Source of the DNA: an uncultured Syntrophomonas sp.
Lineage (GTDB): Bacteria > Bacillota > Syntrophomonadia > Syntrophomonadales > Syntrophomonadaceae
Assembly: GCA_964501655.1 (NCBI GenBank)
Contig: CAZCTN010000006.1
Span: 29,206-93,205 of the forward strand
Direction: 5' to 3'
Length of the DNA: 64,000 nucleotides
Position numbers and translations under genes: made by a program. The notes below the pieces were generated by a model. The model was not told the DNA's origin. It saw only the letters and a list, made by a program, of their open reading frames with translations, and ran no database searches. This document shows, piece after piece, positions 1 to 23,088 of the stretch; positions within the stretch are counted from its first letter, which is position 1; each line of letters begins with the position of its first letter.

Positions 1-3000
1 TTTTTAACTCGCCATTCTCGGTAGTACGGGTTTCTCTTACGGCTTTGCGATCCGAGCTTAGATCATTGCTTTGTTTGATAATGGTATCGGCATCTTTTTT
101 ATATTCGATGGATTTGACCAAGTTGTAACTATAATCATAGCTGTATTTTGCTTCGTATTCGCTGTTGGGATAGCCGGACGCCAGGGGGCTGGTATAGGTA
201 AGTACATTCCCTTTGGAATCATATGTGTACTGCTGGCTGACTAGTTTTCCCATATTGCTATTGCTTCCATAGGTTTGAGTGGTTATTTTTTTTGGCAGTT
301 CAGTAGTAGTATACTCATACTGTATGGTTTTTCTGGTTTTGTTATTCTCGCTTACCGTCTCAGTCTTTTTTAAATGGGTTTGATAATCAAATTTATAACT
401 GCTTTTAGTCCCGAGAGCATTGGTTACGGTGGTGCTATAGTCACTGGTAGCATTCAGAAAACTGGCGCTATAGGTGTAGGTATCATTCAGGTAGATTTGT
501 TTGCCGTCTTTTTTATACATGCTTTTGATGCGGTAGTAGGTGGCGATACCGCCGTTAACGCTTTCATATTCGTTGGTGCAAACTAGTCCGGTGGGGTAGG
601 TTACTCTGATAAGGTTCTGGTAGTTCCGGGTTTGACCATCGTAGGTTCCGTTTGCGTTCTGGTAGGCATAGGTGGTCACCCGGCCCATTTGGTCTTCTTT
701 TTTTATTAAGTTCCCGCTGGTATTTAAGTTGAGGGCAATTACAGATTTATCGGGCAGGATGATGTTGTAAAAGTTGGCCGCTAGTTCGCAGTTGCATAAT
801 ATTCGGGTGGTCTGCCCGGCGCTGTCTACTATAGTTACTTCTTTATTATCGCCTATAGTTTTTTTACTGAAGGTTATGCGGTTGTCAAAGCGGTCGGTTA
901 TAGAGCTTATGTTTCCATCAGAGTCGAAGCTTTCTTTGCGCCCGTCGGCATAGGTCAGGGCGGTTACTTTGCTGGAGGATACAGTTACTTGTATATCACT
1001 TAGTTTGTAGCCTCCTAATTTGTAGATTTGATTCTCGTATACCAATGGATAGGTAGAACCATCGGTTAAGCGTATGTATTTTCCGTCTGTTCTATATAGT
1101 ATGCGGGTAAAATTTAATGACCACCCTCTCCCCAGGTATTTCTGAGGCCATTTGGCTTTTTGGTCGTTTCCGCTATAGGTTTCGGCCGAGTTGTAGACCA
1201 GCACCAGGTTAAGATCCAGGCCGTTTTTCCCAGGCATACTGGCCAGGGTTTCTTCGTATAGCAGGGCTCCGCTGTTAAGGTTTACGGTTTCATTTATGCC
1301 TGCCCGGTAGCCAAAGGGAGCACTTGGGTAGGGCTCTACCGCATCTTCATCTGTTGTCAAAGCTTTCAGTTCGTCTTCAAAATATATGTTCAGCTCTTCT
1401 TTTTTCTCTTGGATTAGCTCTTCGATTTCCTGAACCGTTTTTCCTGTGGTTTTCATGTATTTTATAATGGCTTCTTCATTCAAGTTGTAGCTTATAGCCA
1501 GGGCATGAATTAATTGCTGTTCTTGCGAACTATAATCTGCAAGATCATCGCTGCTGCTGTCTTTGGCAATTATACTGCTTATTTCCAAGCCCAAGGCCTG
1601 GGATGCTATGTAGGCATTTACAATGTTTCGAGCGGGGTAGCCTTTTTGAATGAGTTCTATGATAATGGCTTTATCTTTACTCAGGGTTTCAAATCTCAAT
1701 AAGTAGTCAGCAAGCAATTCCGCCTGCTCGGCTGCGGTTTTTTCGCTGGCAAAGACTAATCCCATTGCTTTAGCTTCTTCTAAAGTCAAGTTTAGGCTTT
1801 GCATGATTTTGGCTTTATATATGCTTTGTTTTAAGGTTAAGCCGGCCTCTTCACAAATCAGCAGGGCCGGTTCGGTTAGTTTTAAATGAAAGTAGAGCAG
1901 TTTTTTTTCATCTTCGTTTAGCTCCGAATATTTATTTTTGGTATTTAGCAGTTCTATTACTTCCTGGGGCAGGTAGGCAAAGTCTTCTTCCGGATTATCT
2001 ATTATCTCGTTATCTATGTTTTCCAATAAAGGAGTTATCGCTAATAAGCCATTTGCTATTTTGTTTACCAGGGTGTCTGCCTGGCTGGCGTTTTCTTTTA
2101 GGGCGAGGGCTATTCCTGTCGCGGTTGCATCTGGTTTTAGTCCTTTATATATTGCTGCTGAGGCTGTTGCATAGGCGGCTGCTAATGAGGTTCCGCTTCC
2201 ATAAGTATAGCTATTACCGGGACTGGTGCTGTATATGTTTTCACCGGGGGCTGCTATATGCACGTGGCTGCCGTAGCTGGATGTGGCGGCTAGTTCTCCT
2301 TGCTGGTTCATTGATGCTACCGAAATTATATTAGGCAGCTGATACGCAGCCGGATATATTTTACTGTCATCACCGGTATTCCCGGCAGCGCATATGAAGA
2401 GTATATTAGGGTTTTGCTCAATGGCGTCTTTGAGAGCCTGATTGTATTCGGGGCTTCCCCAGCTGCAGTTGATGATCGATATACCTTTGCTCCTGGCATA
2501 TTCTATAGCAGCTATGGCATCAGAGGTGTATCCGCTTCCGTTTTCTATAAATTTTAAGGGCATTATCCGGGCTTTTGTGGCTAGCCCCGCTATACCTTCG
2601 CCATCATGATTGGCACCTATTATTCCGGCTATTTGGGTTCCGTGAAACGAATCTCCTTCATCGAATACGCTGTCGTCTTCATTGTAAAAATCCCATCCGT
2701 TTACGATTCTGCCGGCTAGTTCGCTATGGCTGACATCGATTCCGGTATCTATTACCCCTACGGTTACAGGTTCCATGGCATCTATGATAGCCCACTTATC
2801 GCCTATGTTTAGGTCATAGGGCTGGTCTTCTGCTTGTTCCCCGGTACCACCTAATGCCCATTGCTGGTCAAGGTCCGGTTCCGAGGAGGGGTCCATGCTT
2901 TCCAACTGGTAATTGAACTGAACATATTCTACTTTCGGGTCTTTTTCCAGTTGTTCTTTGACTTCTGTGATATTTATATTTGAACCTACAGTTATTTCTG

Positions 3001-3355
3001 CTAGTTTTAACGCTTCATGTTCTTGTTTGACGCTTAGTCTGTTATCTAGCTTTTCCGGTTCCTTTACTGAGTGTTTCTCGGCCAGATCGCTATTTGCATT
3101 TTCTATGATTGTTTCTGCTATTTCAAGGTTTTTGTATTTTATTATTAACTGTGGTTTTTCTACCTTTGGTCGGTCACCCTCTTTATCTTGTTGGAGGTTA
3201 TCTTTGCTTTTTTGTTCTATACTATTTCCCTGGTCTACTGTTTCTACGGCGTATGTTTTAACCACATTTACTGGCAATGTGGTTAGAATCATCAATGTCA
3301 TCAATAGAACCGTTATACTTTTCCTCATTGCCCGTTTAATTCCCCGCATGTTCAT
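1..3355 (-). CDS. Secreted subtilisin-like (S8) serine peptidase fused to an RHS/YD-repeat protein; the 3' end runs off the left window edge
   Basis: Absent from the ORF track because it has no stop in the window. My manual minus-strand translation from ATG 3355 (GGAGAAGGAGA immediately upstream) stays open to position 1. Signal peptide MNMRGIKRAMRKSITVLLMTLMILTTLPVNVVKTYA. S8 triad motifs VGVIDTGID, SFHGTQIAG, GSGTSLAAAY. A helical linker follows, then an RHS-type entry LNSGALLYEETLASMPGKNGLDLNLVLVYNS and YD repeats (FDSDGNISSITDRFDNRITF, YTYDSKGNVLTYT). Confidence 0.8.
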   Translation of the reverse strand, partial: MNMRGIKRAMRKSITVLLMTLMILTTLPVNVVKTYAVETVDQGNSIEQKSKDNLQQDKEGDRPKVEKPQLIIKYKNLEIAETIIENANSDLAEKHSVKEPEKLDNRLSVKQEHEALKLAEITVGSNINITEVKEQLEKDPKVEYVQFNYQLESMDPSSEPDLDQQWALGGTGEQAEDQPYDLNIGDKWAIIDAMEPVTVGVIDTGIDVSHSELAGRIVNGWDFYNEDDSVFDEGDSFHGTQIAGIIGANHDGEGIAGLATKARIMPLKFIENGSGYTSDAIAAIEYARSKGISIINCSWGSPEYNQALKDAIEQNPNILFICAAGNTGDDSKIYPAAYQLPNIISVASMNQQGELAATSSYGSHVHIAAPGENIYSTSPGNSYTYGSGTSLAAAYATASAAIYKGLKPDATATGIALALKENASQADTLVNKIANGLLAITPLLENIDNEIIDNPEEDFAYLPQEVIELLNTKNKYSELNEDEKKLLYFHLKLTEPALLICEEAGLTLKQSIYKAKIMQSLNLTLEEAKAMGLVFASEKTAAEQAELLADYLLRFETLSKDKAIIIELIQKGYPARNIVNAYIASQALGLEISSIIAKDSSSDDLADYSSQEQQLIHALAISYNLNEEAIIKYMKTTGKTVQEIEELIQEKKEELNIYFEDELKALTTDEDAVEPYPSAPFGYRAGINETVNLNSGALLYEETLASMPGKNGLDLNLVLVYNSAETYSGNDQKAKWPQKYLGRGWSLNFTRILYRTDGKYIRLTDGSTYPLVYENQIYKLGGYKLSDIQVTVSSSKVTALTYADGRKESFDSDGNISSITDRFDNRITFSKKTIGDNKEVTIVDSAGQTTRILCNCELAANFYNIILPDKSVIALNLNTSGNLIKKEDQMGRVTTYAYQNANGTYDGQTRNYQNLIRVTYPTGLVCTNEYESVNGGIATYYRIKSMYKKDGKQIYLNDTYTYSASFLNATSDYSTTVTNALGTKSSYKFDYQTHLKKTETVSENNKTRKTIQYEYTTTELPKKITTQTYGSNSNMGKLVSQQYTYDSKGNVLTYTSPLASGYPNSEYEAKYSYDYSYNLVKSIEYKKDADTIIKQSNDLSSDRKAVRETRTTENGELK

Positions 3356-4758
3356 TCTCCTTCTCCTATGTTTTTCCGGTTATAATTCTTAGCCATCAAG
3401 TTGGACATTTGTTAAGGGTGTTAGACTTGTCATTCTATTTCAAATTGAATAATAGTAGTGCCGGTTGTTAAGGGTTTAAATTTGATGATGGTTAGAACTC
3501 CGGTCCAGGCTTTATCGGTATAACTGCTCTTATCTACTTTAAATCGTATGACTCCATTCTTATGACTGAGGATTTCTATCCCGGTTCCAGCTATTACTCC
3601 AGGTTGGGTGTCCTCTCCCCATGTCTGCGCTGCCAGGTCTGTTATTTGTATTTCTTCAGGGTTATATTTTAGGACATAGATCTTCCCCAGGTTATGGGGC
3701 ATATCACTAACATTAAGGCTCAGTATCTGGCTGTTATCTTGAACAATGGTCAGATTTTTTTCGGCTGCGCTTGCCCCCAGCAAAAATTCTTCTATAGTAC
3801 AATTGCTAACCTGCGCTTCTCCAGCCAACTGGCCTATTATTTTTCCACTTTCTGTTGTTCCGCTGATATTCTTAACGCCGGTTATGCTGCAGTTTTGTGC
3901 AGCCCCCCCATTCATATAGCCGATTAATGCTCCTACATTAGTGCTTCCGGTGATATCTACTTTATTCAGTTTTAAATCCTGGATTATTGCTTGATTGGTG
4001 TAGCCAAACAATCCTACATTGTCTGTTGTAGGCAGGTTTATCAGCAGGTTATTGATACTGTGACCATTGCCGTTAAAATTCCCTGTAAAGGGTGTTGTTG
4101 ATGTCCCTAGGGGCTGCAGGGATTGGTTTTGCAAATCTATATCCCGCTCCAAACGATAGCAGGCGCTCAGGTTTTGAGCTACAGCTAACAAATCGTTTGT
4201 GGTGTAGATCAGAATAGGATCTTCAAGGGTTCCGGCAGCTGCTGCCGGGACGCTGCTGCTAACAGTTAGTTGCGTGGACCAAGCGCTGGCAAAAGTTCCT
4301 ATTCGGCTTCTTACCCTGAAGTTATATTCTGTTTGAGGCATGAGTTGCTCTATCAGGCAGGTATGGCTATCGCTGGTAAATATCTCATTCTGAAAATCGA
4401 TCTCATAGGTTTCTGCCCCGGCTTGTGGATCCCAGGTCAGTTCTATGCAGGTTGCTGTCACCAATGATGCTGTTAGATTGCTTGGCGCCAATTGGGTATC
4501 GCTTAAGGTTGTAACGGTGATGGGCTCACTCCAGGGGCTTTTCATATTGTAGTTACGGGCTCGTATAATAAACTCATAGGTAGTATCAGGCTGCAATTCA
4601 TTGATTACAATTTCTGCTGTGTCAGAAGCAGCGATTTTGTCATTGTAACTGACTTCATATGCTTCTGCTGTTGCTTGATTATTCCAGGTTAATTTGACTG
4701 ATACCGGGGTAATATATTCTGCTGTTAACTGGATTGGCGCAACTAGATATATGGGTTG

Positions 4759-7191
4759 GCTTATCCCCTCTACATCTCTCAGATAGGGATAAGATCCGCT
4801 TTCTATGCCCCAGGTATTTATGAAGTCCCAGTTTTCATAGGTCGTTTCGGTCTTTAACTGGCTGCTGGTCTTGGCTTGTTCGACCGGGGTGCTTACTCCT
4901 GCTTTATCTAAATCAAAATAGCTGCTCACCATGCTTACCGTACTTGGTGCTATTCCATTTTTACTGCCGTTTCCACTTAGCTGACACAGGCTGTAGCTGT
5001 TAGTGATTTCCCTGCTTCCGCTGGTAGCGCTATATCCGATTATCCCACCTGCATAACTGCTTGCTAGTATTACTCCTGATGCAAAGCTGTTTTCTACTGC
5101 TAAAGCTCCGGTCGAAGAATTATACCCAATCAATCCCCCGGCTTGAGTACAACTGCTAGACCCAATTTCGCAATCGGCATAGCTGCTTTCTATTACGGTA
5201 CTTCCGGCTCCGCCTACACTTCCTACTAAACCGCCGGCATACCTCCCACTGCTTTTACCTACAGTTCCACTGGCGCAGCTGTTGCTTATCCTGCTTTCCT
5301 CGCTGGTGCTGCTGCTTATGGAGCCGATTAACCCCCCAGCATAATTACTACTGCTACTGTTTATGGTTCCCCGGGATTTACTCCCAGTTATCTCTCCTCC
5401 CAGGGTATTACGTCCTATTAAACCGCCTGCATAATTACCGCCATATACTTCCGCTGCCGCACTACTGTCTGCTATGTCTCCGCCTTTGTTAGATCCAACC
5501 AGGCCGCCTGCTGTTGATCCCGACACTATCCCGCTGCTGATATGGCAGTTTTCTACTCTCCCGCCTTCCATTTCTCCTATGAGACTGCCTATACAGCTGC
5601 CTCCCCTAACGTCTATATTCTCTACTCGTAAATTCTTTATTACCGCGTTGTTGCAACTGCCAAATAATCCTACATTGCCTGTCCCATTAACGCTTACGTT
5701 CTTTATCACATGATCTCTGCCATCAAAGCTGCCGCCGAATGGCACCGTCCCGGTTAAGGGCTCTATGGCTGCCATTTCTAAGTCTATATCGTTTATCATG
5801 GCAAAGTGTTTGCCCGGATTATTCTTTACTCCCAGCAATTGTTCTTTGTTCTCGATTATATATGGATCAGCTTCTGTTCCTGCTCCCTCATACTGTTCTT
5901 TGCCTATCTTGACTTGTTCCGGATTGTCCACTTCTCTTAAATATGAATAGGTAGCTCCTTCTTCTATATCCCAGATGTTTTCATAATCAAAGCCGTTTAC
6001 TTTCTTTATCAGCAGTTCCTTTTGGCTGGCATTATAGCAGGATGTTATATTGCTGCTGCTTAAGCTTCCTCCGCTAAGTACTCCTACGTTAAGATTCCCT
6101 TTTACTTCTCCTACGGTGTAGCTGGTCTTGAGGGTGCTGTCAATTCCTACCTGTCCTACTAAACCTCCTACATAGTTGTTTCCAGTTATGTTCCCCAGTG
6201 CAAAGCTGTTCTCTATATTTACTGTTTTGCTACTATGTCCTACTATACCCCCGGTATACTGGCTGGTTAATCCGTTGCTTTCTATATTCCCGGCAGCATA
6301 GCTCTGGGTAATCGTGGTAACTGACCCGCTTGTATCTCCTATTAGGCCCCCTGCTTTTCCTGCATCGCTTACCACCTTGCCGGTGACAAAACTTCTGGTT
6401 ATTGTGCCACTAAAATACCCGGCCAAGCCCCCGACAATATTTTCTCCTTCTACATCTATGCTGCTGCTGCTTCCTTCAATACCGTTACTCCCATATCCTA
6501 CTATTCCCCCTACATTATTCTTGCCTTTGATTAAGCCTGCCGCCGTAACTTGGCTGTTTATTACCGCGCCGCTGCTATTATATCCGACTAAACCTCCTAC
6601 ATACTGGCTGCTGCTGTTTATGTAGGCTTTGCCTTTTACTTCGCACCCTTCTATGCTTCCGCGCTATTCTCCTATCATTCCTCCTACTCTAATAGCTGAA
6701 TTAGAATTGGTCTCTATACTCAAGTCTCCGTTTACCTGGTTGTTCTTTACCGTACTGCTGTTACTGCGTCCTATCATCCCGCCTATGTATGATGTACCGC
6801 TGCTGGTATCGCTTTTTATTACTATGTTTCCTTCTACCGCGCAGTCTTCTACCTGCCCGTTGTTTATGTAGCCTATCAGTCCGCCTGCATTGCTCATTTT
6901 CCCTTCGCTGATATTCACATTCTCTATCGTTATGTTCTTTAATACGGCTCCATCTCCATAAGCAAATAATCCGGCATAGCTCTGGTTCTTTATGCTTAAA
7001 TTCTTTATCTTATGGCCATCCCCGTCCAAACTCCCTTTGAAGGCATTATTGTTTTCGCCTACCGGCTGCCAGTGCTGGTTCTCCAAGTCTATGTCGCTTC
7101 CTAATCTGTAATGGGCAGTTAAATTGTTCCTTATCCCTTGTAACTGCTCGGCGTTCTCTATTATATATGGGGCTTCTATGGTCCCCTGTCC
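4759..7191. repeat. Tandem duplication, copy 1 (2,433 bp)
   Basis: Matches 7207..9639 wherever I compared the printed lines. All ORF-track entries inside it recur at +2448 with identical translations (5474/7922, 5765/8213, 6314/8762, 6629/9077). Confidence 0.9.
6664..6666 (-). other. In-frame amber codon 2 (same position in the second repeat copy, 2,448 nt downstream)
   Basis: 9112 minus 2448 = 6664; identical context. Confidence 0.9.
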
Positions 7192-7206
7192 GGCTGGCGT
7201 CGTACC

Positions 7207-9639
7207 GCTTATCCCCTCTACATCTCTCAGATAGGGATAAGATCCGCTTTCTATGCCCCAGGTATTTATGAAGTCCCAGTTTTCATAGGTCGTTTCGGTC
7301 TTTAACTGGCTGCTGGTCTTGGCTTGTTCGACCGGGGTGCTTACTCCTGCTTTATCTAAATCAAAATAGCTGCTCACCATGCTTACCGTACTTGGTGCTA
7401 TTCCATTTTTACTGCCGTTTCCACTTAGCTGACACAGGCTGTAGCTGTTAGTGATTTCCCTGCTTCCGCTGGTAGCGCTATATCCGATTATCCCACCTGC
7501 ATAACTGCTTGCTAGTATTACTCCTGATGCAAAGCTGTTTTCTACTGCTAAAGCTCCGGTCGAAGAATTATACCCAATCAATCCCCCGGCTTGAGTACAA
7601 CTGCTAGACCCAATTTCGCAATCGGCATAGCTGCTTTCTATTACGGTACTTCCGGCTCCGCCTACACTTCCTACTAAACCGCCGGCATACCTCCCACTGC
7701 TTTTACCTACAGTTCCACTGGCGCAGCTGTTGCTTATCCTGCTTTCCTCGCTGGTGCTGCTGCTTATGGAGCCGATTAACCCCCCAGCATAATTACTACT
7801 GCTACTGTTTATGGTTCCCCGGGATTTACTCCCAGTTATCTCTCCTCCCAGGGTATTACGTCCTATTAAACCGCCTGCATAATTACCGCCATATACTTCC
7901 GCTGCCGCACTACTGTCTGCTATGTCTCCGCCTTTGTTAGATCCAACCAGGCCGCCTGCTGTTGATCCCGACACTATCCCGCTGCTGATATGGCAGTTTT
8001 CTACTCTCCCGCCTTCCATTTCTCCTATGAGACTGCCTATACAGCTGCCTCCCCTAACGTCTATATTCTCTACTCGTAAATTCTTTATTACCGCGTTGTT
8101 GCAACTGCCAAATAATCCTACATTGCCTGTCCCATTAACGCTTACGTTCTTTATCACATGATCTCTGCCATCAAAGCTGCCGCCGAATGGCACCGTCCCG
8201 GTTAAGGGCTCTATGGCTGCCATTTCTAAGTCTATATCGTTTATCATGGCAAAGTGTTTGCCCGGATTATTCTTTACTCCCAGCAATTGTTCTTTGTTCT
8301 CGATTATATATGGATCAGCTTCTGTTCCTGCTCCCTCATACTGTTCTTTGCCTATCTTGACTTGTTCCGGATTGTCCACTTCTCTTAAATATGAATAGGT
8401 AGCTCCTTCTTCTATATCCCAGATGTTTTCATAATCAAAGCCGTTTACTTTCTTTATCAGCAGTTCCTTTTGGCTGGCATTATAGCAGGATGTTATATTG
8501 CTGCTGCTTAAGCTTCCTCCGCTAAGTACTCCTACGTTAAGATTCCCTTTTACTTCTCCTACGGTGTAGCTGGTCTTGAGGGTGCTGTCAATTCCTACCT
8601 GTCCTACTAAACCTCCTACATAGTTGTTTCCAGTTATGTTCCCCAGTGCAAAGCTGTTCTCTATATTTACTGTTTTGCTACTATGTCCTACTATACCCCC
8701 GGTATACTGGCTGGTTAATCCGTTGCTTTCTATATTCCCGGCAGCATAGCTCTGGGTAATCGTGGTAACTGACCCGCTTGTATCTCCTATTAGGCCCCCT
8801 GCTTTTCCTGCATCGCTTACCACCTTGCCGGTGACAAAACTTCTGGTTATTGTGCCACTAAAATACCCGGCCAAGCCCCCGACAATATTTTCTCCTTCTA
8901 CATCTATGCTGCTGCTGCTTCCTTCAATACCGTTACTCCCATATCCTACTATTCCCCCTACATTATTCTTGCCTTTGATTAAGCCTGCCGCCGTAACTTG
9001 GCTGTTTATTACCGCGCCGCTGCTATTATATCCGACTAAACCTCCTACATACTGGCTGCTGCTGTTTATGTAGGCTTTGCCTTTTACTTCGCACCCTTCT
9101 ATGCTTCCGCGCTATTCTCCTATCATTCCTCCTACTCTAATAGCTGAATTAGAATTGGTCTCTATACTCAAGTCTCCGTTTACCTGGTTGTTCTTTACCG
9201 TACTGCTGTTACTGCGTCCTATCATCCCGCCTATGTATGATGTACCGCTGCTGGTATCGCTTTTTATTACTATGTTTCCTTCTACCGCGCAGTCTTCTAC
9301 CTGCCCGTTGTTTATGTAGCCTATCAGTCCGCCTGCATTGCTCATTTTCCCTTCGCTGATATTCACATTCTCTATCGTTATGTTCTTTAATACGGCTCCA
9401 TCTCCATAAGCAAATAATCCGGCATAGCTCTGGTTCTTTATGCTTAAATTCTTTATCTTATGGCCATCCCCGTCCAAACTCCCTTTGAAGGCATTATTGT
9501 TTTCGCCTACCGGCTGCCAGTGCTGGTTCTCCAAGTCTATGTCGCTTCCTAATCTGTAATGGGCAGTTAAATTGTTCCTTATCCCTTGTAACTGCTCGGC
9601 GTTCTCTATTATATATGGGGCTTCTATGGTCCCCTGTCC
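7207..9639. repeat. Tandem duplication, copy 2 (2,433 bp); period 2,448 bp = 816 codons
   Basis: See copy 1. The copies are joined by a unique 15-nt junction 7192..7206 (ggctggcgtcgtacc), which encodes GTTPA on the minus strand. Confidence 0.9.
9112..9114 (-). other. In-frame amber codon 1 (context GGMIGE-TAG-RGSIEGC, followed by C)
   Basis: cta at 9112..9114 on the plus strand; flanking codons read directly. Confidence 0.9.
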
Positions 9640-9732
9640 CATGCCAGGATAGGTCTGAGCATATGCCAAGCTGGCACTGCCGCTTATTATTAGTAACATA
9701 ATATTGATAATGGCCATAACTTTTTTTAGCAT
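9112..9732 (-). CDS. Only segment of the surface-protein gene with a real start: signal peptide plus first beta-helix module (206 aa), ending at the in-frame TAG
   Basis: ATG at 9732 preceded by AAAGGAAGAG; typical Sec signal ending AYA-Q; stop TAG at 9112..9114. Confidence 0.7.
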   Translation of the reverse strand: MLKKVMAIINIMLLIISGSASLAYAQTYPGMGQGTIEAPYIIENAEQLQGIRNNLTAHYRLGSDIDLENQHWQPVGENNNAFKGSLDGDGHKIKNLSIKNQSYAGLFAYGDGAVLKNITIENVNISEGKMSNAGGLIGYINNGQVEDCAVEGNIVIKSDTSSGTSYIGGMIGRSNSSTVKNNQVNGDLSIETNSNSAIRVGGMIGE

Positions 9733-9868
9733 TTCGTTCTCTTCCTTTCACTGCCAGATAAATAATAAATAAGCAATCATGTTGATATGTACCAATTTAT
9801 ATTATACTTGTTCTTTATGTTATATTTTGTTATTATATGGTAGTTTTTGACATAATAAAAATAATTTA

Positions 9869-10215
9869 TCTGGATTGGGTGAGCACTTGACTCCTTGATT
9901 GCCACCGAAATTAGGAATTCACCAGTTCAAGAAAGCCAAACAGCTGGCAGCGTATTACGGTGTTGATCCCTCCGTCAGACATTAAGGCAACTTCACCCGG
10001 AACGCTCAACAAGGTAACCAAGGGAGGGTCACCTTATCCTCGCAGAGCACTATACATAGCTGCCACTGTTGCCATTAGGAAAGCGTCAAATGGAAGTTTG
10101 GTTACCCAGTTCTCTATGATTATTATTAAGAAAAAACGAAGAGTAAGGCCAAGAAACAGGCATTAGGCGCTGCGATGAACAAATTCTTGAAATACCAGAA
10201 GCCCTTTATTCTTAA
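9869..10215 (+). mobile_element. Decayed C-terminal fragment of an IS110-family transposase (Transposase_20-like region), with frameshifts and stops and no N-terminal part
   Basis: Piecing frames together gives ...LIATEIRN..FKKAKQLAAYYGVDPSVRH*GNFTGTLNKVTKGGSPYPRRALYIAATVAIRK...PVLYDYY*EK..KAKKQALGAAMNKFLK. This matches the conserved IS110 C-terminal pattern (AKQLAAYxGLxPs..qSG....isKrGs..LRraLy.aA). Hairpins lie downstream at about 10205..10240 and 10284..10299. Confidence 0.6.
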
Positions 10216-10341
10216 AGAACAAAGGGCTCGATTCAATCAAAAATTAGCGTTTGTAGCTTAAGAACCTCGATTTACTATACGGACTTCGCTAATGCGAAGA
10301 TAGCTGTTTGCAACTATTATTCGTATTCTGGGTAGTACTAA

Positions 10342-10375
10342 AAAAAGCTTGACTTTAGCTAGCTGGTCCTTGGTT
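10342..10375. repeat. Inverted copy (31/34 identical) of 23843..23876
   Basis: The reverse complement aaccaaggaccagctagctaaagtcaagcttttt compares with aaccagagaccagctaactaaagtcaagcttttt. Confidence 0.8.
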
Positions 10376-10378
10376 CGA

Positions 10379-11797
10379 TCACATGAATATCTGGATAGCG
10401 TACCCGGCTAGTTGGGATAAGGGGCCGGGGTAGACTCCCAGGAGGATGGTAGCCAGTACGCACACCCATAGTGCGACAGTGCTGCCCCATCCCAGAGACA
10501 CTGGTGCTTGATCCGAGTTTTCCCCGATGTACATGGCTTTGGAAACTCCCAGGTAATAGTAAACCGAGACCATGCTCATCACCAGACCCAAGAGGGCCAG
10601 CCAGAGATAGCCGGCTTCTATGGCTCCGGCAAACAAGTAGAACTTGCCCGCGAAGCCTGCCATGGGCGGAATTCCGGCCAGGGACAGCATGCATATGGTC
10701 ATTATAGCGGCCAGCAGGGGCGAACGTTTGCTCAAACCGGCAAAGGCCTCGATATCAGTTCGTCCGGTATCTGCTTCCACCGCGGCAGCCACAGCAAATG
10801 CACCCACATTGGCAAAAACATATATCATGGCATAAAACAATACTCCTTTCAAACCATATGAGTTGGCGGCAGCCAGCCCTACCAGAATATATCCGGCTTG
10901 GGCAATGCTGGAGTATGCCAAGAGTCTCTTAATATCCTGCTGGGAAAGGGCTATAAGGTTTCCGATAATAATGGTCAGAGCAGCCAGGACCGCCAGGAGC
11001 AGGCTCCAGTTGAATACTGAACCCTGGTCTGCTGCGGCCATGAATACCCGCAGAAGGGCGGCAAAACCTGCCGCTTTGGAAGCCACCGAAAGATAGGTGG
11101 TAACCGGAATGGGCGCTCCCTGGTAAATGTCCGGGGTCCACATGTGGAAAGGCACTACCGAAACCTTGAAGGCGAAACCGGCGATTATCATCGCCATTCC
11201 AGCTATGACAGCCGCCGATGAAGTAAAGGACGCTCCTATGTCTATAAAATTGGTGCTTCCCAGGCTGGCATAGATCAGGCTGATGCCAAAGAGGAGGATA
11301 GCTGAAGATATGGCACCCAGGATCAGGTATTTTAATCCGGCTTCACCCGAAAGCTTATCAGTCTTCAGATAAGCGGTCAGAATATAGAAACTTATGGTCA
11401 TCAGCTCCAGACCCAAATAAAGGGTGATGAATTCCCCGGCTGAAACCATAAGCATCATGCCCAGGGTGGCAAATATCATCAGACCGTAAAATTCATTGCT
11501 TTTCTCTTCAAACCGGCTGATATACCGTCCCGCCATTAGCATGACCAGGATGCCGGCACTGAGGAATAATATCTTGAAATAATTGCCATACAAGTCAATC
11601 TGGTAAACCCCGTTGAACAAACCGGCTTCCCGGGAATAGCTCAGGGCTAAATAAAGCAGCACCAGGCTCAACCCGGATACAGACAGGCCATTGACATACT
11701 TCCCTGCCTTTTGGGGCAGGGCCAGACCCAGGATCAACACCGCCAACCCTAGCAGGGCCATCAGGATTTCAGCTGCCAGTATCGAAAAATCCATCAT
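10379..11797 (-). CDS. nuoN: NADH-quinone oxidoreductase subunit N
   Basis: Polytopic antiporter-like protein at the last position of the nuo operon. ATG 11797 lies 6 nt after GGAGG and overlaps the nuoM stop. Confidence 0.85.
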   Translation of the reverse strand: MMDFSILAAEILMALLGLAVLILGLALPQKAGKYVNGLSVSGLSLVLLYLALSYSREAGLFNGVYQIDLYGNYFKILFLSAGILVMLMAGRYISRFEEKSNEFYGLMIFATLGMMLMVSAGEFITLYLGLELMTISFYILTAYLKTDKLSGEAGLKYLILGAISSAILLFGISLIYASLGSTNFIDIGASFTSSAAVIAGMAMIIAGFAFKVSVVPFHMWTPDIYQGAPIPVTTYLSVASKAAGFAALLRVFMAAADQGSVFNWSLLLAVLAALTIIIGNLIALSQQDIKRLLAYSSIAQAGYILVGLAAANSYGLKGVLFYAMIYVFANVGAFAVAAAVEADTGRTDIEAFAGLSKRSPLLAAIMTICMLSLAGIPPMAGFAGKFYLFAGAIEAGYLWLALLGLVMSMVSVYYYLGVSKAMYIGENSDQAPVSLGWGSTVALWVCVLATILLGVYPGPLSQLAGYAIQIFM

Positions 11798-13302
11798 AAC
11801 CAACCTCCTATCTGCAGCAGTCCAATCTGCGCTGCCAGTGCTCCTACCCCATTATTGATCAGATCCATCAGGGTAAAGGGGAGGAAACCTCCCAGGAATA
11901 TTGCCGATCCCAGTACTACCAGGGGCACCATCTCCACACCTTTTAGATCCTGGAGATGATCCCACTTCTCATTACGGGGACCAAACAACATCCTGCCCAG
12001 GGCTCGCAGAACATAAAGGGCGGTGAAAACGATTCCTGATATGGCCAGGATGGTTATTACTCTATAGGTACCGAAAGCTCCTACAAATATGGTAAACTCG
12101 CCAATAAAATTCACCATGCCCGGCAAGCCCAAGGAAGCCAAACCGGCAATCATAAAGCCTGCAGTGAGTTTCGGCATCTGATGAGCCAGTCCTCCGAAAT
12201 CTTCGATATTGCGGGTGTGGCTCTTTTCATACAGGTTGCCGATCATGGCAAAGAAGAGGGCCGCCATCACCCCGTGGGCGAACATCATGATAACCGCGCC
12301 ATTCAAGCTGATTAAATTCAAGGCCGCGATTCCTACCAGCACATAGCCCATGTGGCTTACACTGGAGTAACCCACTATGTACTTCAAATCCTTCTGGCTT
12401 AAACAGATATAGGCGGCATATACAATATTTCCAACCGCAAGCACCGCGATAATAGGGGCTACAATTGCTGCCCCAACCGGCAGAATAGTAATCGCTATGC
12501 GGATTAAGCCGTATCCCCCGATTTTCTTCAGCACCCCGGCGTGGATCATGCTCACCGCAGTGGGCGCTCCGGCATAACCATCCGGCGACCAGGCGTGAAA
12601 GGGGAACATGGATAACAAGGTGCCAAAACCAAAGGCCATAAAGGCAAATACCAGAATTTGAAATTCCACCCCATAGTCCAGGGTGGCCAGGAAGGCCATA
12701 TCCATACTGGCAATGCCGCTGATCGCTTGTGCCTGCACAAAAAGAGCTATTAAGCCGGTTAGTAAAAAGGCGCTGCCTATCAACAGATAAATGGTAAGTT
12801 TCATGCCAGCGTACTCCTTGCTGACCCGTTTGGTACTGCCAAACATAATTACCAGCAGATAAATGGGTATAACTACCACCTCATAGAACAGGAAGAAAAT
12901 AAACAGATCGGTAGTAATAAAGGTTCCCATTACCCCGGCTATCAGTATTAACAGCAGAGCAAAGAATTCCTTGACCCGCTCGGCCAGGTTCCAGGAAGCA
13001 TATACGGAACTGAATCCAATCAGATTAGTCAATAGCAGCATGGGGATACTTATCCCGTCTACTCCCAGGGCATAGTTGACTCCCAGGTCTTTGATCCAGG
13101 GTATGGTTTCTACAAACTGCATACCCCCAGCTGCCCGGTCATAAGCCAGGAATACCGCTATAGACAGCAGCAAGCTGATCAGGGTGGCGAATGCTGCCGT
13201 CCACTTTATCCCTTTATGCTGTTGGGCAGGCAGGCCCATAATAAGCATGGCTCCCAGCAAAGGTATCACCAGGGTTATAGTTAATACCGGTATTTCGTTC
13301 AT
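11794..13302 (-). CDS. nuoM: NADH-quinone oxidoreductase subunit M
   Basis: 502-aa antiporter-like subunit; operon position between L and N. Confidence 0.85.
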   Translation of the reverse strand: MNEIPVLTITLVIPLLGAMLIMGLPAQQHKGIKWTAAFATLISLLLSIAVFLAYDRAAGGMQFVETIPWIKDLGVNYALGVDGISIPMLLLTNLIGFSSVYASWNLAERVKEFFALLLILIAGVMGTFITTDLFIFFLFYEVVVIPIYLLVIMFGSTKRVSKEYAGMKLTIYLLIGSAFLLTGLIALFVQAQAISGIASMDMAFLATLDYGVEFQILVFAFMAFGFGTLLSMFPFHAWSPDGYAGAPTAVSMIHAGVLKKIGGYGLIRIAITILPVGAAIVAPIIAVLAVGNIVYAAYICLSQKDLKYIVGYSSVSHMGYVLVGIAALNLISLNGAVIMMFAHGVMAALFFAMIGNLYEKSHTRNIEDFGGLAHQMPKLTAGFMIAGLASLGLPGMVNFIGEFTIFVGAFGTYRVITILAISGIVFTALYVLRALGRMLFGPRNEKWDHLQDLKGVEMVPLVVLGSAIFLGGFLPFTLMDLINNGVGALAAQIGLLQIGGWL

Positions 13303-13319
13303 TTACTACCTACCCCCTT

Positions 13320-15209
13320 TCATAATACTGCGGACTCTACGGCTATGGCTCCCAGCACTACCAGGATTAATACCCCGGCCATCATGTACATGGCATAGCT
13401 CTGAACCTGTCCATCTTCGGTGTATTTTAAGCTGTCCCCGCTTTTCCCGGTTAGATATGCAATGCCGTTAACAAACCCGTTAACTATATGGATATCGATC
13501 CAGAACATAACCCGGGCTCCCCCGTAAACCAGTATCTCACCCAGGCGGGTATATATTTCATCGATATAGTATTTATTCTGCACCAGGGTATAGAGTCCAG
13601 AAAATTTCTGGCGCAGGGCTTCATGGCTGATAACATTTTTCTGGTAGATCAACCAGGCCAGTAAGATTCCGGCCCCGGCGATAAGGGAAGATGATACCAT
13701 TATACCGATACTGGGATGAGGGTGGATGCCCAGAGGACTGTTAACATATTCCCCGAACACATGATGCATAAGGGGCGAGTTAACGAAACCAACCAGGACG
13801 GCTGCCACCGCCAGTATTACCAGCGGAACAGTAATTACTCCTCTGTTCTCGTGGGCTTTTTCCTGCCCATAGGTATTACTGCCATAGAAGGCGGTGAATA
13901 TCAGGCGGAACATGTAAAAAGCGGTCATAAAGGCCACCACTACTCCCAGCACATATAATCCTATGTGACCGCTAGAGTAGGCGGCCAGGAGGATCTCGTC
14001 CTTACTCCAAAATCCGGACAGGGGGGGTATCCCGGAGAGGGCCAGGGCTCCGATAATAAAAGTCCAGGTGGTTATCGGCATTTTCCGGGATAGATTGCCC
14101 ATTTTCCAGATGTTCTGTTCCTCGTGCATGGCATGTATCACACTGCCCGCGCCCAGGAATAACAGGCTCTTAAAGAAGGCATGGGTCATTAAATGGAACA
14201 TTCCGGCGGTCATAGCTCCTATGCCCATAGCCATCATCATATAACCCAACTGGCTCAAGGTTGAATAGGCCAGTATTCTTTTTATATCATTCTGAGTAAT
14301 AGCTATGGTGGCGGCAAACAGGGCGGTAAAGCCGCCTACTACGGCTATTACGGTCATAGCCTGGGGTACGCTGGCAAATATGAAGAAGGCCCTGGCCACC
14401 AGGTACACCCCGGCAGCTACCATGGTGGCAGCATGAATCAATGCGCTGACTGGGGTGGGTCCTTCCATGGCATCCGGCAGCCACCCGTGCAGGGGGAACT
14501 GGGCTGATTTGCCCATGGGGCCGAAGAACAACAGTATGGCAACCGGAATCAGCACTGCGACATTCTGATATCCAGGTATTACATGGGCCAGAGCGGTAAA
14601 GCTAAGAGTACCGAATATTATCTGCAAAAAGAGTATCCCCAGCAAGAACCCAAAGTCTCCTACCCGGTTGGTTATAAAGGCTTTGATGGCGGCATTCTTG
14701 GCCGAGTCCAGCCCAAACCAGAAGCCGATCAGGAAGTAGGAACAAATTCCCACCAGTTCCCAGAACACAAACATCTGTCCAAAGTTGTTGGCCATTACCA
14801 GTCCCAGCATGGAGGCGGCAAACAGGCTTTGATAGCCGTAATAACTGGCGAAACCTGGATCACCTTCCATGTAGCCCAGGGAGTAAATCTGCACCAGGGT
14901 GGCAATAGAGGTTACTACCAGCAGCATTACCGCTGTCAGCGGGTCCAGCAGCAGCCCCATATCTACCTGCAAACCAGGCATCTGCAGCCAGCGCATCGAG
15001 TACTCAAATACTGCTCCCCCGGGTTCTGCAAATACTGCCGACGCCAGTGGAATAGAAAATATACAGGCCGCAGCAATACTGAGTATGGATAAACCTGCTG
15101 ATATACCGGGCCAGCGGTGCACGAATAAGAAGATCAATGCGGCGGCCAGAAAAGGCAAGAAGGCTATCAGCCAGGCGTTGGGCAAAATAAATTCATACAT
15201 ATTCATCAC
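13320..15209 (-). CDS. nuoL: NADH-quinone oxidoreductase subunit L
   Basis: 629-aa antiporter-like subunit with the long C-terminal extension typical of NuoL. Confidence 0.85.
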   Translation of the reverse strand: MMNMYEFILPNAWLIAFLPFLAAALIFLFVHRWPGISAGLSILSIAAACIFSIPLASAVFAEPGGAVFEYSMRWLQMPGLQVDMGLLLDPLTAVMLLVVTSIATLVQIYSLGYMEGDPGFASYYGYQSLFAASMLGLVMANNFGQMFVFWELVGICSYFLIGFWFGLDSAKNAAIKAFITNRVGDFGFLLGILFLQIIFGTLSFTALAHVIPGYQNVAVLIPVAILLFFGPMGKSAQFPLHGWLPDAMEGPTPVSALIHAATMVAAGVYLVARAFFIFASVPQAMTVIAVVGGFTALFAATIAITQNDIKRILAYSTLSQLGYMMMAMGIGAMTAGMFHLMTHAFFKSLLFLGAGSVIHAMHEEQNIWKMGNLSRKMPITTWTFIIGALALSGIPPLSGFWSKDEILLAAYSSGHIGLYVLGVVVAFMTAFYMFRLIFTAFYGSNTYGQEKAHENRGVITVPLVILAVAAVLVGFVNSPLMHHVFGEYVNSPLGIHPHPSIGIMVSSSLIAGAGILLAWLIYQKNVISHEALRQKFSGLYTLVQNKYYIDEIYTRLGEILVYGGARVMFWIDIHIVNGFVNGIAYLTGKSGDSLKYTEDGQVQSYAMYMMAGVLILVVLGAIAVESAVL

Positions 15210-15210
15210 C

Positions 15211-15519
15211 TCACCACTTCAACAGATTAAAATCGTGCAGATCCACTGATCCGCGCTGCCGGTAAATGGATATGACCAGAGCCAGGCCCACGGCTATTTC
15301 GGCAGCGGCTACCACGATAACGAAAACGGAAAACAATTGACCTACTGCGCTGTCGGGGGCAATATACTTGTTGGCGGCTACAAAATTAATGTTAACCGCA
15401 TTCAGCATCAGTTCCACTGACATCAACACCGCTACCGCATTGCGCCGGGTCAAAACTCCAAAAATCCCTATGCAAAATATAATAGTACCCAATAATAAAT
15501 AATGGGGTAATCCGATCAC
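15211..15519 (-). CDS. nuoK: NADH-quinone oxidoreductase subunit K
   Basis: 102 aa, three TM helices; operon position. Confidence 0.85.
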
Positions 15520-16725: not shown

Positions 16726-16728
16726 TAC

Positions 16729-17769: not shown

Positions 17770-17821
17770 ATACTATTCGCTCCTCTTGAGTGAAATTGGC
17801 CAATTAGCTTGACGCTGATTA

Positions 17822-19375: not shown

Positions 19376-19379
19376 AATA

Positions 19380-20248: not shown

Positions 20249-20343
20249 GAATATCTCCTCCTTTCATATTATGAATTCCACCTTTATCCATATTATATCC
20301 TTAAACTCATGTTTTCCTTCTATATTATAGATGTATGATTGCG

Positions 20344-20372
20344 TTGACAGGCTGCCCAAATAGACGTAAAAT
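20344..20372 (+). promoter_or_regulatory. Sigma-A type promoter candidate (TTGACA-17 nt-TAAAAT) facing the 20560 gene
   Basis: TTGACA at 20344..20349, a 17-nt spacer, TAAAAT at 20367..20372. Confidence 0.5.
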
Positions 20373-21834: not shown

Positions 21835-21835
21835 T

Positions 21836-22527: not shown

Positions 22528-23088
22528 ATGAGAAAAAAGATAGTCAGAATAGCGTCTATTTGTATTATTATGCTATTGTGTTTTTCTTCAGTCGCACTAG
22601 GTGAGAGAAGAGTATTGCCTGTTACCGGTTATGAACAGGAGGGAATTGGATGGTGTTGGGCAGCGAGCGATAAAATGATAATAAAATACACTAAAGGCTC
22701 AGCTCCATCGCAGCAGTCTTTGGTTAACGATTATTCTACAGATCCTGACGGTGGAGCCAATTTGAGTGTAGCAAGAGACGCTTTGAACGATTATGGCGTA
22801 TCAAACTCAATCACGTACAATTGCTTAAGCTATACTGCTGTGAAGTCACAAATAAACTATGGCGATGATGGCCGACCAATATTTTGCAGATTGCAAAACG
22901 GCGATGGTTGGTTGTATAGCCATGCAGTTGTTCTTAGGGGTTATAATACTGACAATAGTCTGGTATATTATATTGATCCTTCGGATGGTTTGGGGCACGG
23001 CATTACTTATAGTAGATTTTGCGCTGGCGTAAAATATGATGGCTTCTATTCTGATTGGGATGGTACCATCTACAATAATCATGATTAG
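22528..23088 (+). CDS. Secreted papain-fold cysteine peptidase (C39-like/papain-like)
   Basis: Signal peptide. Gln is six residues before the Cys in YEQEGIGWCWAAS, the papain Q19/C25 spacing. His candidate in YSHAVVLRGY, Asp/Asn candidate in YYIDPSDG. RBS GAAAGGAAG. AT-rich relative to neighbouring genes. Confidence 0.6.
   Translation: MRKKIVRIASICIIMLLCFSSVALGERRVLPVTGYEQEGIGWCWAASDKMIIKYTKGSAPSQQSLVNDYSTDPDGGANLSVARDALNDYGVSNSITYNCLSYTAVKSQINYGDDGRPIFCRLQNGDGWLYSHAVVLRGYNTDNSLVYYIDPSDGLGHGITYSRFCAGVKYDGFYSDWDGTIYNNHD

What the first reader, a model, noticed from the sequence alone, without database searches (positions are those of the whole stretch)
3430..9732. One 2,100-codon surface-protein frame broken only by two identical in-frame amber codons
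The three track ORFs 9112..9732, 6664..8874 and 3430..6426 are all in the same minus-strand frame (9732, 8874 and 6426 are multiples of 3). The only interruptions are TAG at 9112..9114 and TAG at 6664..6666.

The 79 codons between each TAG and the next listed start are open. They read RGSIEGCEVKGKAYINSSSQYVGGLVGYNSSGAVINSQVTAAGLIKGKNNVGGIVGYGSNGIEGSSSSIDVEGENIVGG, which is the same GG[LIM][IV]G[YE] beta-helix repeat as the rest of the protein.

The M of the two downstream ORFs is a TTG that is really the Leu of a GGLAGY repeat, and it has no RBS. The coding signal therefore runs straight through GGMIGE-TAG-RGSIEGC.

I see two readings:
- A nonsense-inactivated gene that now makes only a 206-aa secreted stub.
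- A gene whose full-length product of more than 200 kDa depends on amber suppression or read-through. The base after TAG is C, generally the weakest termination context in E. coli studies, so this could act as a dosage or phase control on a huge adhesin.

TAG is an ordinary stop elsewhere in this window (nuoA, tatA, resB, dctQ, peptidase 22528..23088). Genome-wide reassignment is therefore not supported.
Basis: partly seen in the sequence, partly recalled or inferred. Interest (0 to 1): 0.75.

Follow-up and report, generated by a model that had tools for sequence, protein, structure and literature searches.

The report
Nonsense-broken surface-protein gene with duplicated module
A large secreted beta-helix (GLUG-repeat) protein gene in a Syntrophomonas-like bacterium carries one premature TAG stop, which appears twice only because a 2.4-kb piece of the gene is perfectly duplicated; it is most likely an ordinary, recently inactivated accessory gene.

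Summary
The sequence facts are right. The minus-strand frame 9732→3430 has 2,100 codons and only two internal stops, both TAG. The two ambers are not independent, though. Positions 4759-7191 and 7207-9639 are 100% identical (2,433 bp, period 2,448 bp = 816 codons), so one TAG was copied by a tandem duplication.

At least 14 other assemblies read here hold the identical locus with a single unit: one TAG, about 1,284 codons. That makes the TAG a real fixed allele rather than a random sequencing error. No assembly in a 15-billion-protein collection has a sense codon at that position.

The gene has no orthologue above about 40% identity. It is absent downstream of nuoN in all related genomes examined, so it belongs to a strain-specific island together with an S8-peptidase/RHS gene.

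The TAG cuts a continuous beta-solenoid module at its third rung. TAG ends about 13 ordinary genes in the window, six of them as TAG-C, and no other gene has an in-frame stop. A near-identical strain (Logan SRR31227859) has two synonymous changes in the RHS gene and a second nonsense change (CAG→TAG) further down this gene.

Best reading: a young pseudogene. Read-through or pyrrolysine decoding has no support, but a genome-wide check for it was not possible.

The parts
3430..9732 (-). Whole interrupted reading frame of the GLUG / M26_N-type secreted protein gene. It has 2,100 codons in this window and about 1,284 codons in single-unit assemblies. The true stop is TGA at 3430-3432.
9112..9732 (-). 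5' fragment, the only part expected to be translated and exported. It holds a Sec-type signal peptide (MLKKVMAIINIMLLIISGSASLAYA|Q), the M26_N-like cap and three GLUG rungs. The 206-aa product ends at the TAG.
   Evidence: the exact 206-aa product is on 17 contigs
9112..9114 (-). Premature TAG, copy 1 (context GGA GAA TAG CGC)
6664..6666 (-). The same premature TAG in copy 2 of the duplicated unit
7207..9639 (-). Tandem repeat copy 1 (2,433 bp): module A (interrupted) plus module B
   Evidence: 100% identical to 4759-7191
7192..7206 (-). Unique in-frame 15-nt junction/linker GGTACGACGCCAGCC (GTTPA) between the two copies. It matches neither flank, occurs nowhere else in the window, and is absent from the single-unit loci.
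4759..7191 (-). Tandem repeat copy 2 (2,433 bp)
7207..8334 (-). Module B, an intact paralogue of the interrupted module. It models as a single capped beta-solenoid (pLDDT 95). The best solved-structure matches are the beta-helix domains of IgA1 proteases. The same sequence lies at 4759-5886.
4261..4746 (-). Two fibronectin type III domains (approximate limits)
4591..4593 (-). CAG (Gln) codon in the first fn3 domain. In the 99.935%-identical contig L003 (Logan SRR31227859) it reads TAG, a second, independent nonsense change.
3433..4194 (-). Third M26_N/GLUG-like module followed by a C-terminal domain of about 150 aa. The C-terminal domain has no family match, and its single-sequence model was unusable (pLDDT 39).
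1..3355 (-). Downstream neighbour with its own ribosome-binding site (GGAGAAGGAGA): a giant S8 peptidase-DUF6531-RHS/YD-shell protein gene that runs off the window. It lies in the same strain-specific island. No terminator is predicted between the two genes.
10199..10229 (-). Strong hairpin terminator after nuoN. The GLUG gene therefore has its own promoter region in 9733-10198.

Best explanation
This is a recently inactivated accessory gene, a pseudogene created by one nonsense mutation. It encodes a large secreted multi-module beta-solenoid protein built from M26_N-type caps, GLUG repeats, two fn3 domains and a C-terminal domain of unknown type.

Translation from the ATG at 9732 stops at the first TAG. 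The product is a 206-aa signal-peptide-bearing stub holding only the first three rungs of the first solenoid module. The rest of the frame is still open only because the mutation is young.

The TAG appears twice because the 816-codon unit that contains it (modules A and B) is present as two perfect tandem copies in this assembly. Most other assemblies of the same clone show one copy. The copy number either varies through recombination between the repeats or is collapsed by the assemblers.

**Shown:**
- the frame and the TAGs
- the perfect duplication and its unique junction
- the identical allele in many assemblies
- the absence of orthologues and of synteny
- the fold of an intact module
- normal use of TAG as a stop in the window
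- a second nonsense allele in a sister strain

**Inferred:** that termination at the TAG is efficient, and that the downstream part is not made.
For: 1. One event, not two. The two copies are 100% identical over 2,433 bp.
2. The TAG is a real consensus allele.
   - The exact 206-aa product is on 17 contigs from JGI, ENA and NCBI assemblies.
   - Eight loci whose DNA was read are mismatch-free against the window apart from the unit count.
3. Neither the homologue searches nor the cluster listings hold a version with a sense codon at that position.
4. The TAG lies inside a fold unit.
   - GLUG rungs continue on both sides of it.
   - The intact paralogous module models as one capped beta-solenoid with pLDDT 95. 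It matches IgA1-protease beta-helix domains 3N6Z and 6XJA at E = 3e-8 and 6e-5.
5. There is no in-frame start for 79 codons after the TAG and no ribosome-binding site at the TTG.
6. The gene is dispensable and accessory.
   - The best homologue is 34-40% identical.
   - The gene and its RHS neighbour are absent after nuoN in 8 metagenome loci and 80 related genome loci.
7. TAG is an ordinary stop. It makes up 17 of 58 ORF ends, including nuoA, dctQ, acpS and cheW, and six of those are TAG-C. The only stops flanked by long open frames inside a single gene are the two in this gene.
8. L003 is 99.935% identical over 4,615 nt and differs at three sites. Two are synonymous third-position changes in the RHS gene. 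The third is CAG→TAG in this gene, downstream of the first TAG. About 4% of random substitutions in this gene would create a stop. This pattern fits relaxed selection on this gene alone.
Against: - All full-length comparators are the same clone, so selection on the downstream part (dN/dS) cannot be measured.
- The frame after the TAG shows no decay in the main clone.
- The second nonsense allele lies 23 nt from the end of a low-coverage Logan contig. It could be a minor variant or an error.
- Both nonsense codons are TAG. By itself that would also fit tolerance of TAG, although TAG accounts for 29% of all possible nonsense substitutions in this gene and 48% of those reachable by transitions.
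- The rest of the genome could not be searched for pylT/pylS or a suppressor tRNA.
- The identity of the two copies may partly reflect an assembler traversing one collapsed node twice. If so, it is not proven that both physical copies carry the TAG.
Confidence: 0.8

Rival explanations
1. Full-length expression relies on decoding of the TAG, either by pyrrolysine (tRNA-Pyl CUA), by an amber-suppressor tRNA, or by context-driven leaky termination (TAG-C). Under this reading the amber acts as a dosage control on a giant surface protein.
For: - The frame stays perfectly open for 1,077 codons, or 815 + 1,077 codons in this window, after the TAG.
- The base after the TAG is C. My own recollection of Poole et al. 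1995 is that this is the weakest termination context for UAG in E. coli.
- A sister strain carries a second in-frame TAG derived from CAG.
- The 115 nt downstream of the TAG fold slightly better than shuffled sequence, z = -1.9.
Against: - TAG terminates about 13 ordinary genes in the window, six of them as TAG-C, so the context is not distinctive.
- In-frame TAGs occur only in this gene among about 55 genes. That pattern fits a pseudogene better than organism-wide suppression.
- There is no tRNA or Rfam element in the window.
- The TAG falls at a repeat position that varies among the paralogous rungs (I, M, N, S, G, F, V, T). It also lies in a rung that homologues lack, so there is no conserved site to compare.
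- To my knowledge, pyrrolysine use has not been reported for Syntrophomonas. A search for papers holding both 'pyrrolysine' and 'Syntrophomonadaceae' returned six, none with either term in its title or abstract; they were not read.
- The two TAGs in the window are not independent evidence.
Confidence: 0.05
2. The second copy, or the TAG itself, is an assembly or sequencing artefact. The real gene would then have one unit, with either one TAG or none.
For: - Fourteen or more assemblies read here show a single unit, whereas only three carry the 736-aa ORF that spans the junction.
- A perfect 2.4-kb repeat cannot be resolved by short reads.
- The eight ENA contigs are named k141_, which I take to be MEGAHIT output. 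They run straight through X1-R-X2. My inference from how de Bruijn-graph assemblers behave is that the junction path was absent or minor in those samples.
Against: **For the TAG**
- The identical codon appears in every independent assembly, made by at least two assembly pipelines.
- No sense-codon version exists in the protein collection.

**For the duplication**
- The junction is a unique, in-frame 15-nt sequence found nowhere else in the window or in the single-unit loci. An assembler cannot invent it, so reads joining the end of the unit to its start must exist.
- The junction-spanning ORF is present in one NCBI contig and two JGI contigs.
Confidence: 0.12
3. The truncation is adaptive rather than neutral. 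Loss of a giant surface protein, for example a phage receptor or a costly adhesin, was selected in the reactor-type population from which the samples come. Alternatively, the 206-aa secreted stub has a function of its own.
For: - The allele is fixed across all 17 contigs that carry it.
- The stub keeps its signal peptide and a complete M26_N-type cap.
Against: - All assemblies are one clone with zero mismatches, so fixation may simply reflect clonality.
- A three-rung solenoid without its C-terminal cap is unlikely to be stable. This is an inference from the model of the intact module.
Confidence: 0.1

Closest known systems
GLUG-motif / Peptidase_M26_N beta-helix proteins (N-terminal beta-helix domain of streptococcal IgA1 metalloproteases ZmpA; BACOVA_03286, PDB 3N6Z)
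   Same: - Pfam Peptidase_M26_N and Glug score above their gathering cut-offs.
- The intact module models as a capped beta-solenoid whose best solved-structure matches are 3N6Z, 6XJA, 6XJB and 7UVK.
- The protein has a signal peptide.
- It shares a multi-domain 'surface/secreted' architecture, here with fn3 domains.
   Different: - No M26 metalloprotease catalytic domain was detected.
- The modules are arranged in tandem as A-B-(A-B)-fn3-fn3-C.
- No recognisable wall anchor was found. Pfam gave no hit on the C-terminal 166 aa.
- The gene is interrupted by a stop.
Bacterial pseudogenes formed by a single nonsense mutation in accessory surface-protein genes
   Same: - A premature stop lies inside a domain.
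- The rest of the frame is intact.
- The gene is lineage-specific.
- A further disabling mutation occurs in a sister strain.
   Different: No intact orthologue is available to show the ancestral codon, so the inactivation is inferred from paralogous modules and distant homologues only.
Identical tandem repeat modules in Gram-positive surface proteins (for example alpha C/Rib, Bap, SasG/Aap), whose copy number changes by recombination
   Same: - The in-frame tandem copies are perfect at the DNA level.
- The number of units differs between assemblies, one versus two.
   Different: - The unit is very long (2,448 bp, two whole solenoid modules).
- Only one or two copies are seen.
- A distinct 15-nt linker sits at the junction.
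- Real copy-number variation has not been separated from assembly collapse.
Pyrrolysine-encoding genes / programmed amber read-through
   Same: An in-frame TAG is followed by a long open frame.
   Different: - The gene is not a methylamine methyltransferase.
- The site is not conserved in any homologue.
- TAG is frequent as a normal stop.
- No Pyl machinery could be examined.

Membership tests
GLUG / Peptidase_M26_N beta-helix protein family | Pfam PF07581 (Glug) and PF05342 (Peptidase_M26_N) matches above the curated cut-offs | tested here: met
   - Glug scores 86.9 and 71.7 bits against a cut-off of 20.5.
- M26_N scores 37-47 bits against a cut-off of 27.7.
- Hits fall on all three ORF pieces.
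GLUG / Peptidase_M26_N beta-helix protein family | Beta-solenoid fold like the IgA1-protease N-terminal domain | tested here: met
   The module B model has pLDDT 95.2 and pTM 0.93. Foldseek top hits are 3N6Z (E = 3e-8) and 6XJA/6XJB.
M26 IgA1-specific metalloprotease | M26 catalytic (zincin HExxH) domain | tested here: not met
   Pfam finds only the N-terminal region, Glug and fn3 families. No peptidase M26 C-terminal or catalytic family was hit.
Pseudogene by nonsense mutation | A premature stop inside a conserved domain that is uninterrupted in homologues or paralogues | tested here: met
   - The TAG sits at rung 3 of module A.
- Modules B and C, and 10-28 aligned homologues, are uninterrupted.
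Pseudogene by nonsense mutation | Relaxed selection or further disabling mutations downstream in related strains | tested here: inconclusive
   One further CAG→TAG change occurs in L003, alongside two synonymous changes in the neighbouring gene. This is a single SNP near a contig end, and all other assemblies are identical.
Pseudogene by nonsense mutation | An intact orthologue shows a sense codon at the site | not testable with these tools
   - No orthologue above about 40% identity exists in 5.8 billion clusters.
- The NNN-codon pattern search found nothing in metagenome contigs or genome contigs.
- No syntenic gene occurs in relatives.
Pyrrolysine (Pyl) decoding | pylT (tRNA with CUA anticodon) and pylS/pylBCD in the genome | not testable with these tools
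   Only this 64-kb window and the flanks of the same contig are available. ARAGORN finds no tRNA in the window.
Pyrrolysine (Pyl) decoding | The in-frame TAG is conserved at the same position in orthologues | tested here: not met
   The rung that holds the TAG is an insertion relative to the aligned homologues. The equivalent position in paralogous rungs is variable and is never a stop.
Programmed stop-codon read-through | A distinctive stop context or stimulatory downstream structure not shared by normal terminators | tested here: not met
   - Six ordinary genes in the window also end in TAG-C.
- The downstream fold has z = -1.9 only.
- There is no Rfam match.
Genome-wide TAG reassignment | TAG absent or rare as a terminator and frequent in-frame in conserved genes | tested here: not met
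   TAG is the terminator at 17 of 58 ORF ends, and no other gene has an in-frame TAG.
Tandem-repeat surface protein with recombinational copy-number variation | Perfect in-frame tandem units whose number differs between isolates | tested here: inconclusive
   There are two perfect units here and one unit in 14 or more assemblies of the same clone. Without reads, assembler collapse cannot be separated from real variation. The unique junction argues that the two-unit form is real.

The most novel reading that the evidence does not exclude
The amber is deliberately leaky. A suppressor or Pyl tRNA encoded elsewhere in this Syntrophomonas-like genome, or intrinsically weak termination at GAA-TAG-C, would let a small regulated fraction of ribosomes make the full protein of roughly 130-220 kDa. 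Each added tandem unit would bring another amber, so recombinational copy-number change would tune the dose of the full-length protein multiplicatively. The second CAG→TAG allele in a sister strain would then reflect tolerance of TAG in this gene.
Probability: 0.04. Interest if true: 0.7.

Novelty: new member of a known kind. Interest (0 to 1): 0.15.

Why it matters
This matters mainly as a clean-up. The striking pattern of two identical ambers in a 2,100-codon frame reduces to one nonsense mutation inside a perfectly duplicated 2.4-kb module of a strain-specific accessory gene.

It is a useful caution for genome scans. Repeated 'recoding-like' signals should first be checked for DNA-level duplication and for assembly differences between samples.

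There is some minor biological interest:
- The gene is a previously undescribed multi-module GLUG beta-solenoid protein. It lies next to an S8-RHS toxin-like gene in an island of a Syntrophomonas-like bacterium.
- It shows possible copy-number dynamics of a very long repeat unit.

If read-through were real, it would be a rare bacterial case of amber-controlled dosage. Nothing found here points that way.

Tried and rejected
- **Sense-codon variants by DNA pattern.** I searched for ATGATAGGAGAANNNCGCGGAAGCATAG. It gave 0 hits in metagenome contigs and genome contigs, although the pattern is correct. Those collections simply lack this strain.
- **Syntenic orthologues through nuoM/nuoN neighbours.** Relatives carry an AbiGi gene and a gerA operon after nuoN instead. 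tblastn of the GLUG and RHS proteins against 80 related genome loci found nothing.
- **Fetching the JGI contigs that carry the 736-aa junction-spanning ORF.** They were not on record.
- **Structure of the C-terminal 196 aa from a single sequence.** The model had pLDDT 39 and was unusable.
- **Modelling the interrupted module with the TAG replaced by Q.** I modelled the intact paralogous module B instead.
- **Ancestral codon.** The rung containing the TAG has no counterpart in homologues, so the ancestral residue cannot be inferred. Single-step candidates are Gln, Lys, Glu, Leu, Ser, Trp and Tyr.
- **Other TAG-split genes in the window.** All other stops flanked by open frames of at least 100 codons were read as junctions between neighbouring genes or frames lying over other genes; acpS / NAD(P)HX dehydratase was confirmed by Pfam, and dctQ/dctM and the nuoC/nuoD and nuoH/nuoI junctions by the gene calls in related loci.
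- **+1 frameshift or bypass.** Rejected, because the downstream frame is the zero frame.
- **Literature searches.** Searches on Pyl in Syntrophomonadaceae, GLUG pseudogenes and read-through context gave nothing specific.
- **A PylS homologue search.** Judged uninformative, because hits cannot be tied to this genome.


Full report
**1. The observation**

The three ORFs 9112..9732 (206 aa), 6664..8874 (736 aa) and 3430..6426 (998 aa) share one minus-strand frame. Translating 9732→3430 gives 2,100 codons. The only internal stops are at codons 207 and 1023, both TAG (9112-9114 and 6664-6666), in the context GGA GAA TAG CGC.

The 79 codons after each TAG are open, contain no ATG/GTG/TTG, and continue the GGxxG repeat. 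The listed TTG 'start' is the Leu of GGLAGY and has no properly spaced Shine-Dalgarno sequence. The descriptive part of the finding is therefore correct.

**2.

Comparing the sequence with itself at an offset of 2,448 nt shows that 4759-7191 and 7207-9639 are 100% identical over 2,433 bp. The two ambers are the same codon in two copies of an 816-codon tandem unit, so they are one mutational event.

The copies are joined by a 15-nt in-frame linker, GGTACGACGCCAGCC (7192-7206, GTTPA). It differs from the 15 nt before copy 1 and from the 15 nt after copy 2. It is unique in the window.

The unit corresponds exactly to two protein modules, A and B. It starts at GQGTIEAPY and ends at RDVEGIS.

**3. 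Other assemblies of the same locus**

The exact 206-aa product is on 17 contigs from JGI, ENA and NCBI.
- Two JGI loci (samples 3300033173 and 3300034686) and six ENA loci (ERZ27252294-308, contigs named k141_) were read.
- All eight are mismatch-free against the window but hold only one unit: the 206-aa ORF, a gap, then the 998-aa ORF, about 1,284 codons with one TAG.
- The junction sequence is absent from the two JGI loci, the only single-unit loci held when it was searched.
- The 736-aa ORF, which can exist only with two units, is recorded on one NCBI contig and two JGI contigs. Those contigs could not be fetched.

Conclusions from this:
- The TAG is a reproducible consensus allele of one clonal strain, not a random sequencing error.
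- The two-unit form is probably real in at least some samples, because an assembler cannot invent the junction.
- Either the copy number varies between samples or the repeat was collapsed by the assemblers.
- My inference from how de Bruijn-graph assemblers behave is that MEGAHIT-style contigs running straight through the unit mean the junction path was absent or minor in those samples.
- Where an assembler traversed one collapsed node twice, the 100% identity of the two copies arises by construction.

**4. No sense-codon version and no orthologue**

Homologue searches with the N-terminal 469 aa and the C-terminal 656 aa returned only this strain's own fragments at 99-100% identity. The next hits were at or below about 46% over short parts, and 34-40% over long alignments. 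The best named hit is a GLUG protein of Anaerovirgula multivorans. The cluster listings contain no full-length member.

A DNA pattern with NNN at the codon found nothing in the public metagenome or genome collections, although it matches the window and the loci.

The organism is Syntrophomonas-like. The best GTDB representative has NuoN at 87% amino-acid identity, and the nuo operon is about 80% identical at the nucleotide level. In its relatives, nuoN is followed by an AbiGi gene and a gerA operon. None of 80 related genome loci contains a GLUG or RHS homologue. The gene therefore lies in a strain-specific island together with the downstream S8-peptidase/DUF6531/RHS gene.

**5. What the protein is**

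Pfam finds Peptidase_M26_N and Glug on all three pieces, plus two fn3 domains.

Module B was modelled with an alignment of 35 sequences. It gives a high-confidence capped beta-solenoid (pLDDT 95.2, pTM 0.93). Its best solved-structure matches are:
- the putative IgA1 protease BACOVA_03286 (3N6Z, E = 3e-8);
- the beta-helix domain of S. pneumoniae IgA1 protease (6XJA and 6XJB);
- then pectate-lyase-type right-handed beta-helices.

No protease catalytic domain was found. The N-terminus is a typical Sec signal peptide. The C-terminal domain of about 150 aa has no family match, and its single-sequence model was unusable. The architecture is signal peptide - A - B - (A - B) - fn3 - fn3 - C - C-terminal domain.

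Aligning modules A, B and C places the TAG in the third GLUG rung of module A. At least seven further rungs and the C-terminal cap (W-D-I…Y-S-Y-L) follow it. The 206-aa product is thus a truncated fold unit.

**6. Is TAG special here?**

Among 58 non-overlapping ORFs of at least 90 aa, the stops are 26 TAA, 17 TAG and 15 TGA. About 13 of the TAG-ending ORFs are clear genes (nuoA, dctQ, acpS, cheW and others), and six end in TAG-C, the same context as the internal TAG.

A scan for stops flanked by at least 100 open codons on both sides found many junctions between adjacent genes. The two TAGs of this gene were the only such stops inside a single gene.

The window holds no tRNA and no Rfam family. 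The 115 nt after the TAG fold only slightly better than shuffled sequence (z = -1.9). Genome-wide reassignment is excluded, and there is no site-specific read-through signal.

**7. A second nonsense allele**

A Logan contig from SRR31227859 (L003) matches window 4615→1 at 99.935%, with three differences:
- Two are synonymous third-position changes in the RHS gene (GAC→GAT and CTG→CTC).
- The third is CAG→TAG (Gln→stop) at window 4593-4591, in the first fn3 domain of the GLUG gene.

Only about 4.2% of all possible substitutions in this gene create a stop, or 1.8% of transitions. TAG is 29% of all possible nonsense outcomes and 48% of those reachable by transitions, so two TAGs out of two is unremarkable.

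Synonymous changes in the neighbouring gene combined with a nonsense change downstream of an existing stop is what relaxed selection on a pseudogene predicts. The caveats are that this is a single SNP, that it lies 23 nt from the end of a short contig, and that it may be a minor variant.

**8. Explanation**

The most likely explanation (about 0.8) is a young nonsense pseudogene of an accessory secreted beta-solenoid protein. The stop is duplicated along with its 2.4-kb module pair.

Expected consequences:
- A 206-aa exported stub is made, which is probably unstable.
- No signal-peptide-bearing downstream product is made.
- Transcriptional polarity on the RHS gene is possible. That gene has its own ribosome-binding site, and no terminator lies between the two genes.

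Rival readings:
- Decoding of the TAG by Pyl, a suppressor tRNA or leaky termination (about 0.05). There is no positive evidence, but it cannot be excluded without the whole genome or proteomics.
- An artefact (about 0.12). This concerns mainly the copy number, not the TAG.
- Adaptive loss or a functional stub (about 0.1). This overlaps with the main reading.

**9. Comparison with known systems and verdict**

The protein is a member of the GLUG/M26_N beta-helix family, with both the sequence test and the fold test met. It is not an M26 protease, because no catalytic domain is present.

The interruption is an ordinary nonsense pseudogene. The perfect long tandem unit resembles the identical repeats of Gram-positive surface proteins, whose copy number changes by recombination. 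It fails the tests that could be run for Pyl decoding, for programmed read-through and for reassignment. The Pyl-machinery test could not be run.

The finding is real but ordinary, and interest is low (0.15). The most novel reading not excluded is amber-controlled dosage multiplied by unit copy number. I put its probability at about 0.04.

Noticed in passing
window 1-3355 (minus strand), continuing beyond the window; L001 13936-20621: A giant gene of more than 2,233 codons encodes an S8 peptidase, DUF6531 and RHS/YD-shell repeats. It starts 75-80 nt after the GLUG gene stop, has a strong ribosome-binding site of its own, and no terminator is predicted between the two genes. The called product length differs between assemblies (1,884 to 2,233+), probably because contigs break in its variable 3' end.
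   Followed up: partly
window 1-10198 versus L004-L011 and L018-L097: The GLUG and RHS genes form a strain-specific island downstream of nuoN. Related Syntrophomonas/Syntrophomonadaceae MAGs have an AbiGi gene and a gerA spore-germination operon there instead. None of 80 related genome loci has a homologue of either island gene.
   Followed up: yes
L003 positions 2541 and 2547 (window 2075 and 2069): The SRR31227859 strain carries two synonymous third-position differences 6 nt apart in the RHS gene (GAC→GAT, CTG→CTC). This suggests it is a genuinely distinct but very close strain.
   Followed up: yes
window 10379-20248 (minus strand): The nuo operon is of the 11-subunit type, nuoA,B,C,D,H,I,J,K,L,M,N, with no nuoE/F/G in the operon. 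It ends in a strong 14-bp hairpin terminator at 10199-10229.
   Followed up: no
window 1-10000 versus 10001-22000: AT skew changes sharply at about 10 kb, from about -0.21 to -0.35 (plus strand) across the island to about +0.1 in much of the nuo operon. The coding strand of the island genes is strongly A-rich. GC content is a little lower in the island (0.40-0.49) than in the operon (0.47-0.52).
   Followed up: no
L001, L002, L012-L017 (JGI 3300033173 and 3300034686; ENA ERZ27252294-308): The same strain is assembled with zero mismatches over more than 10 kb in at least eight samples from two repositories. This points to a clonal population in a sample series, probably reactors or enrichments. 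The window's own species was not found in the GTDB representative set by exact pattern.
   Followed up: partly
window 58196-60118 (minus strand): acpS (123 aa, ends in TAG) and a bifunctional NAD(P)HX epimerase/dehydratase gene (515 aa) lie in the same frame, separated only by the TAG and one codon. Pfam shows they are two ordinary genes, not a split gene.
   Followed up: yes
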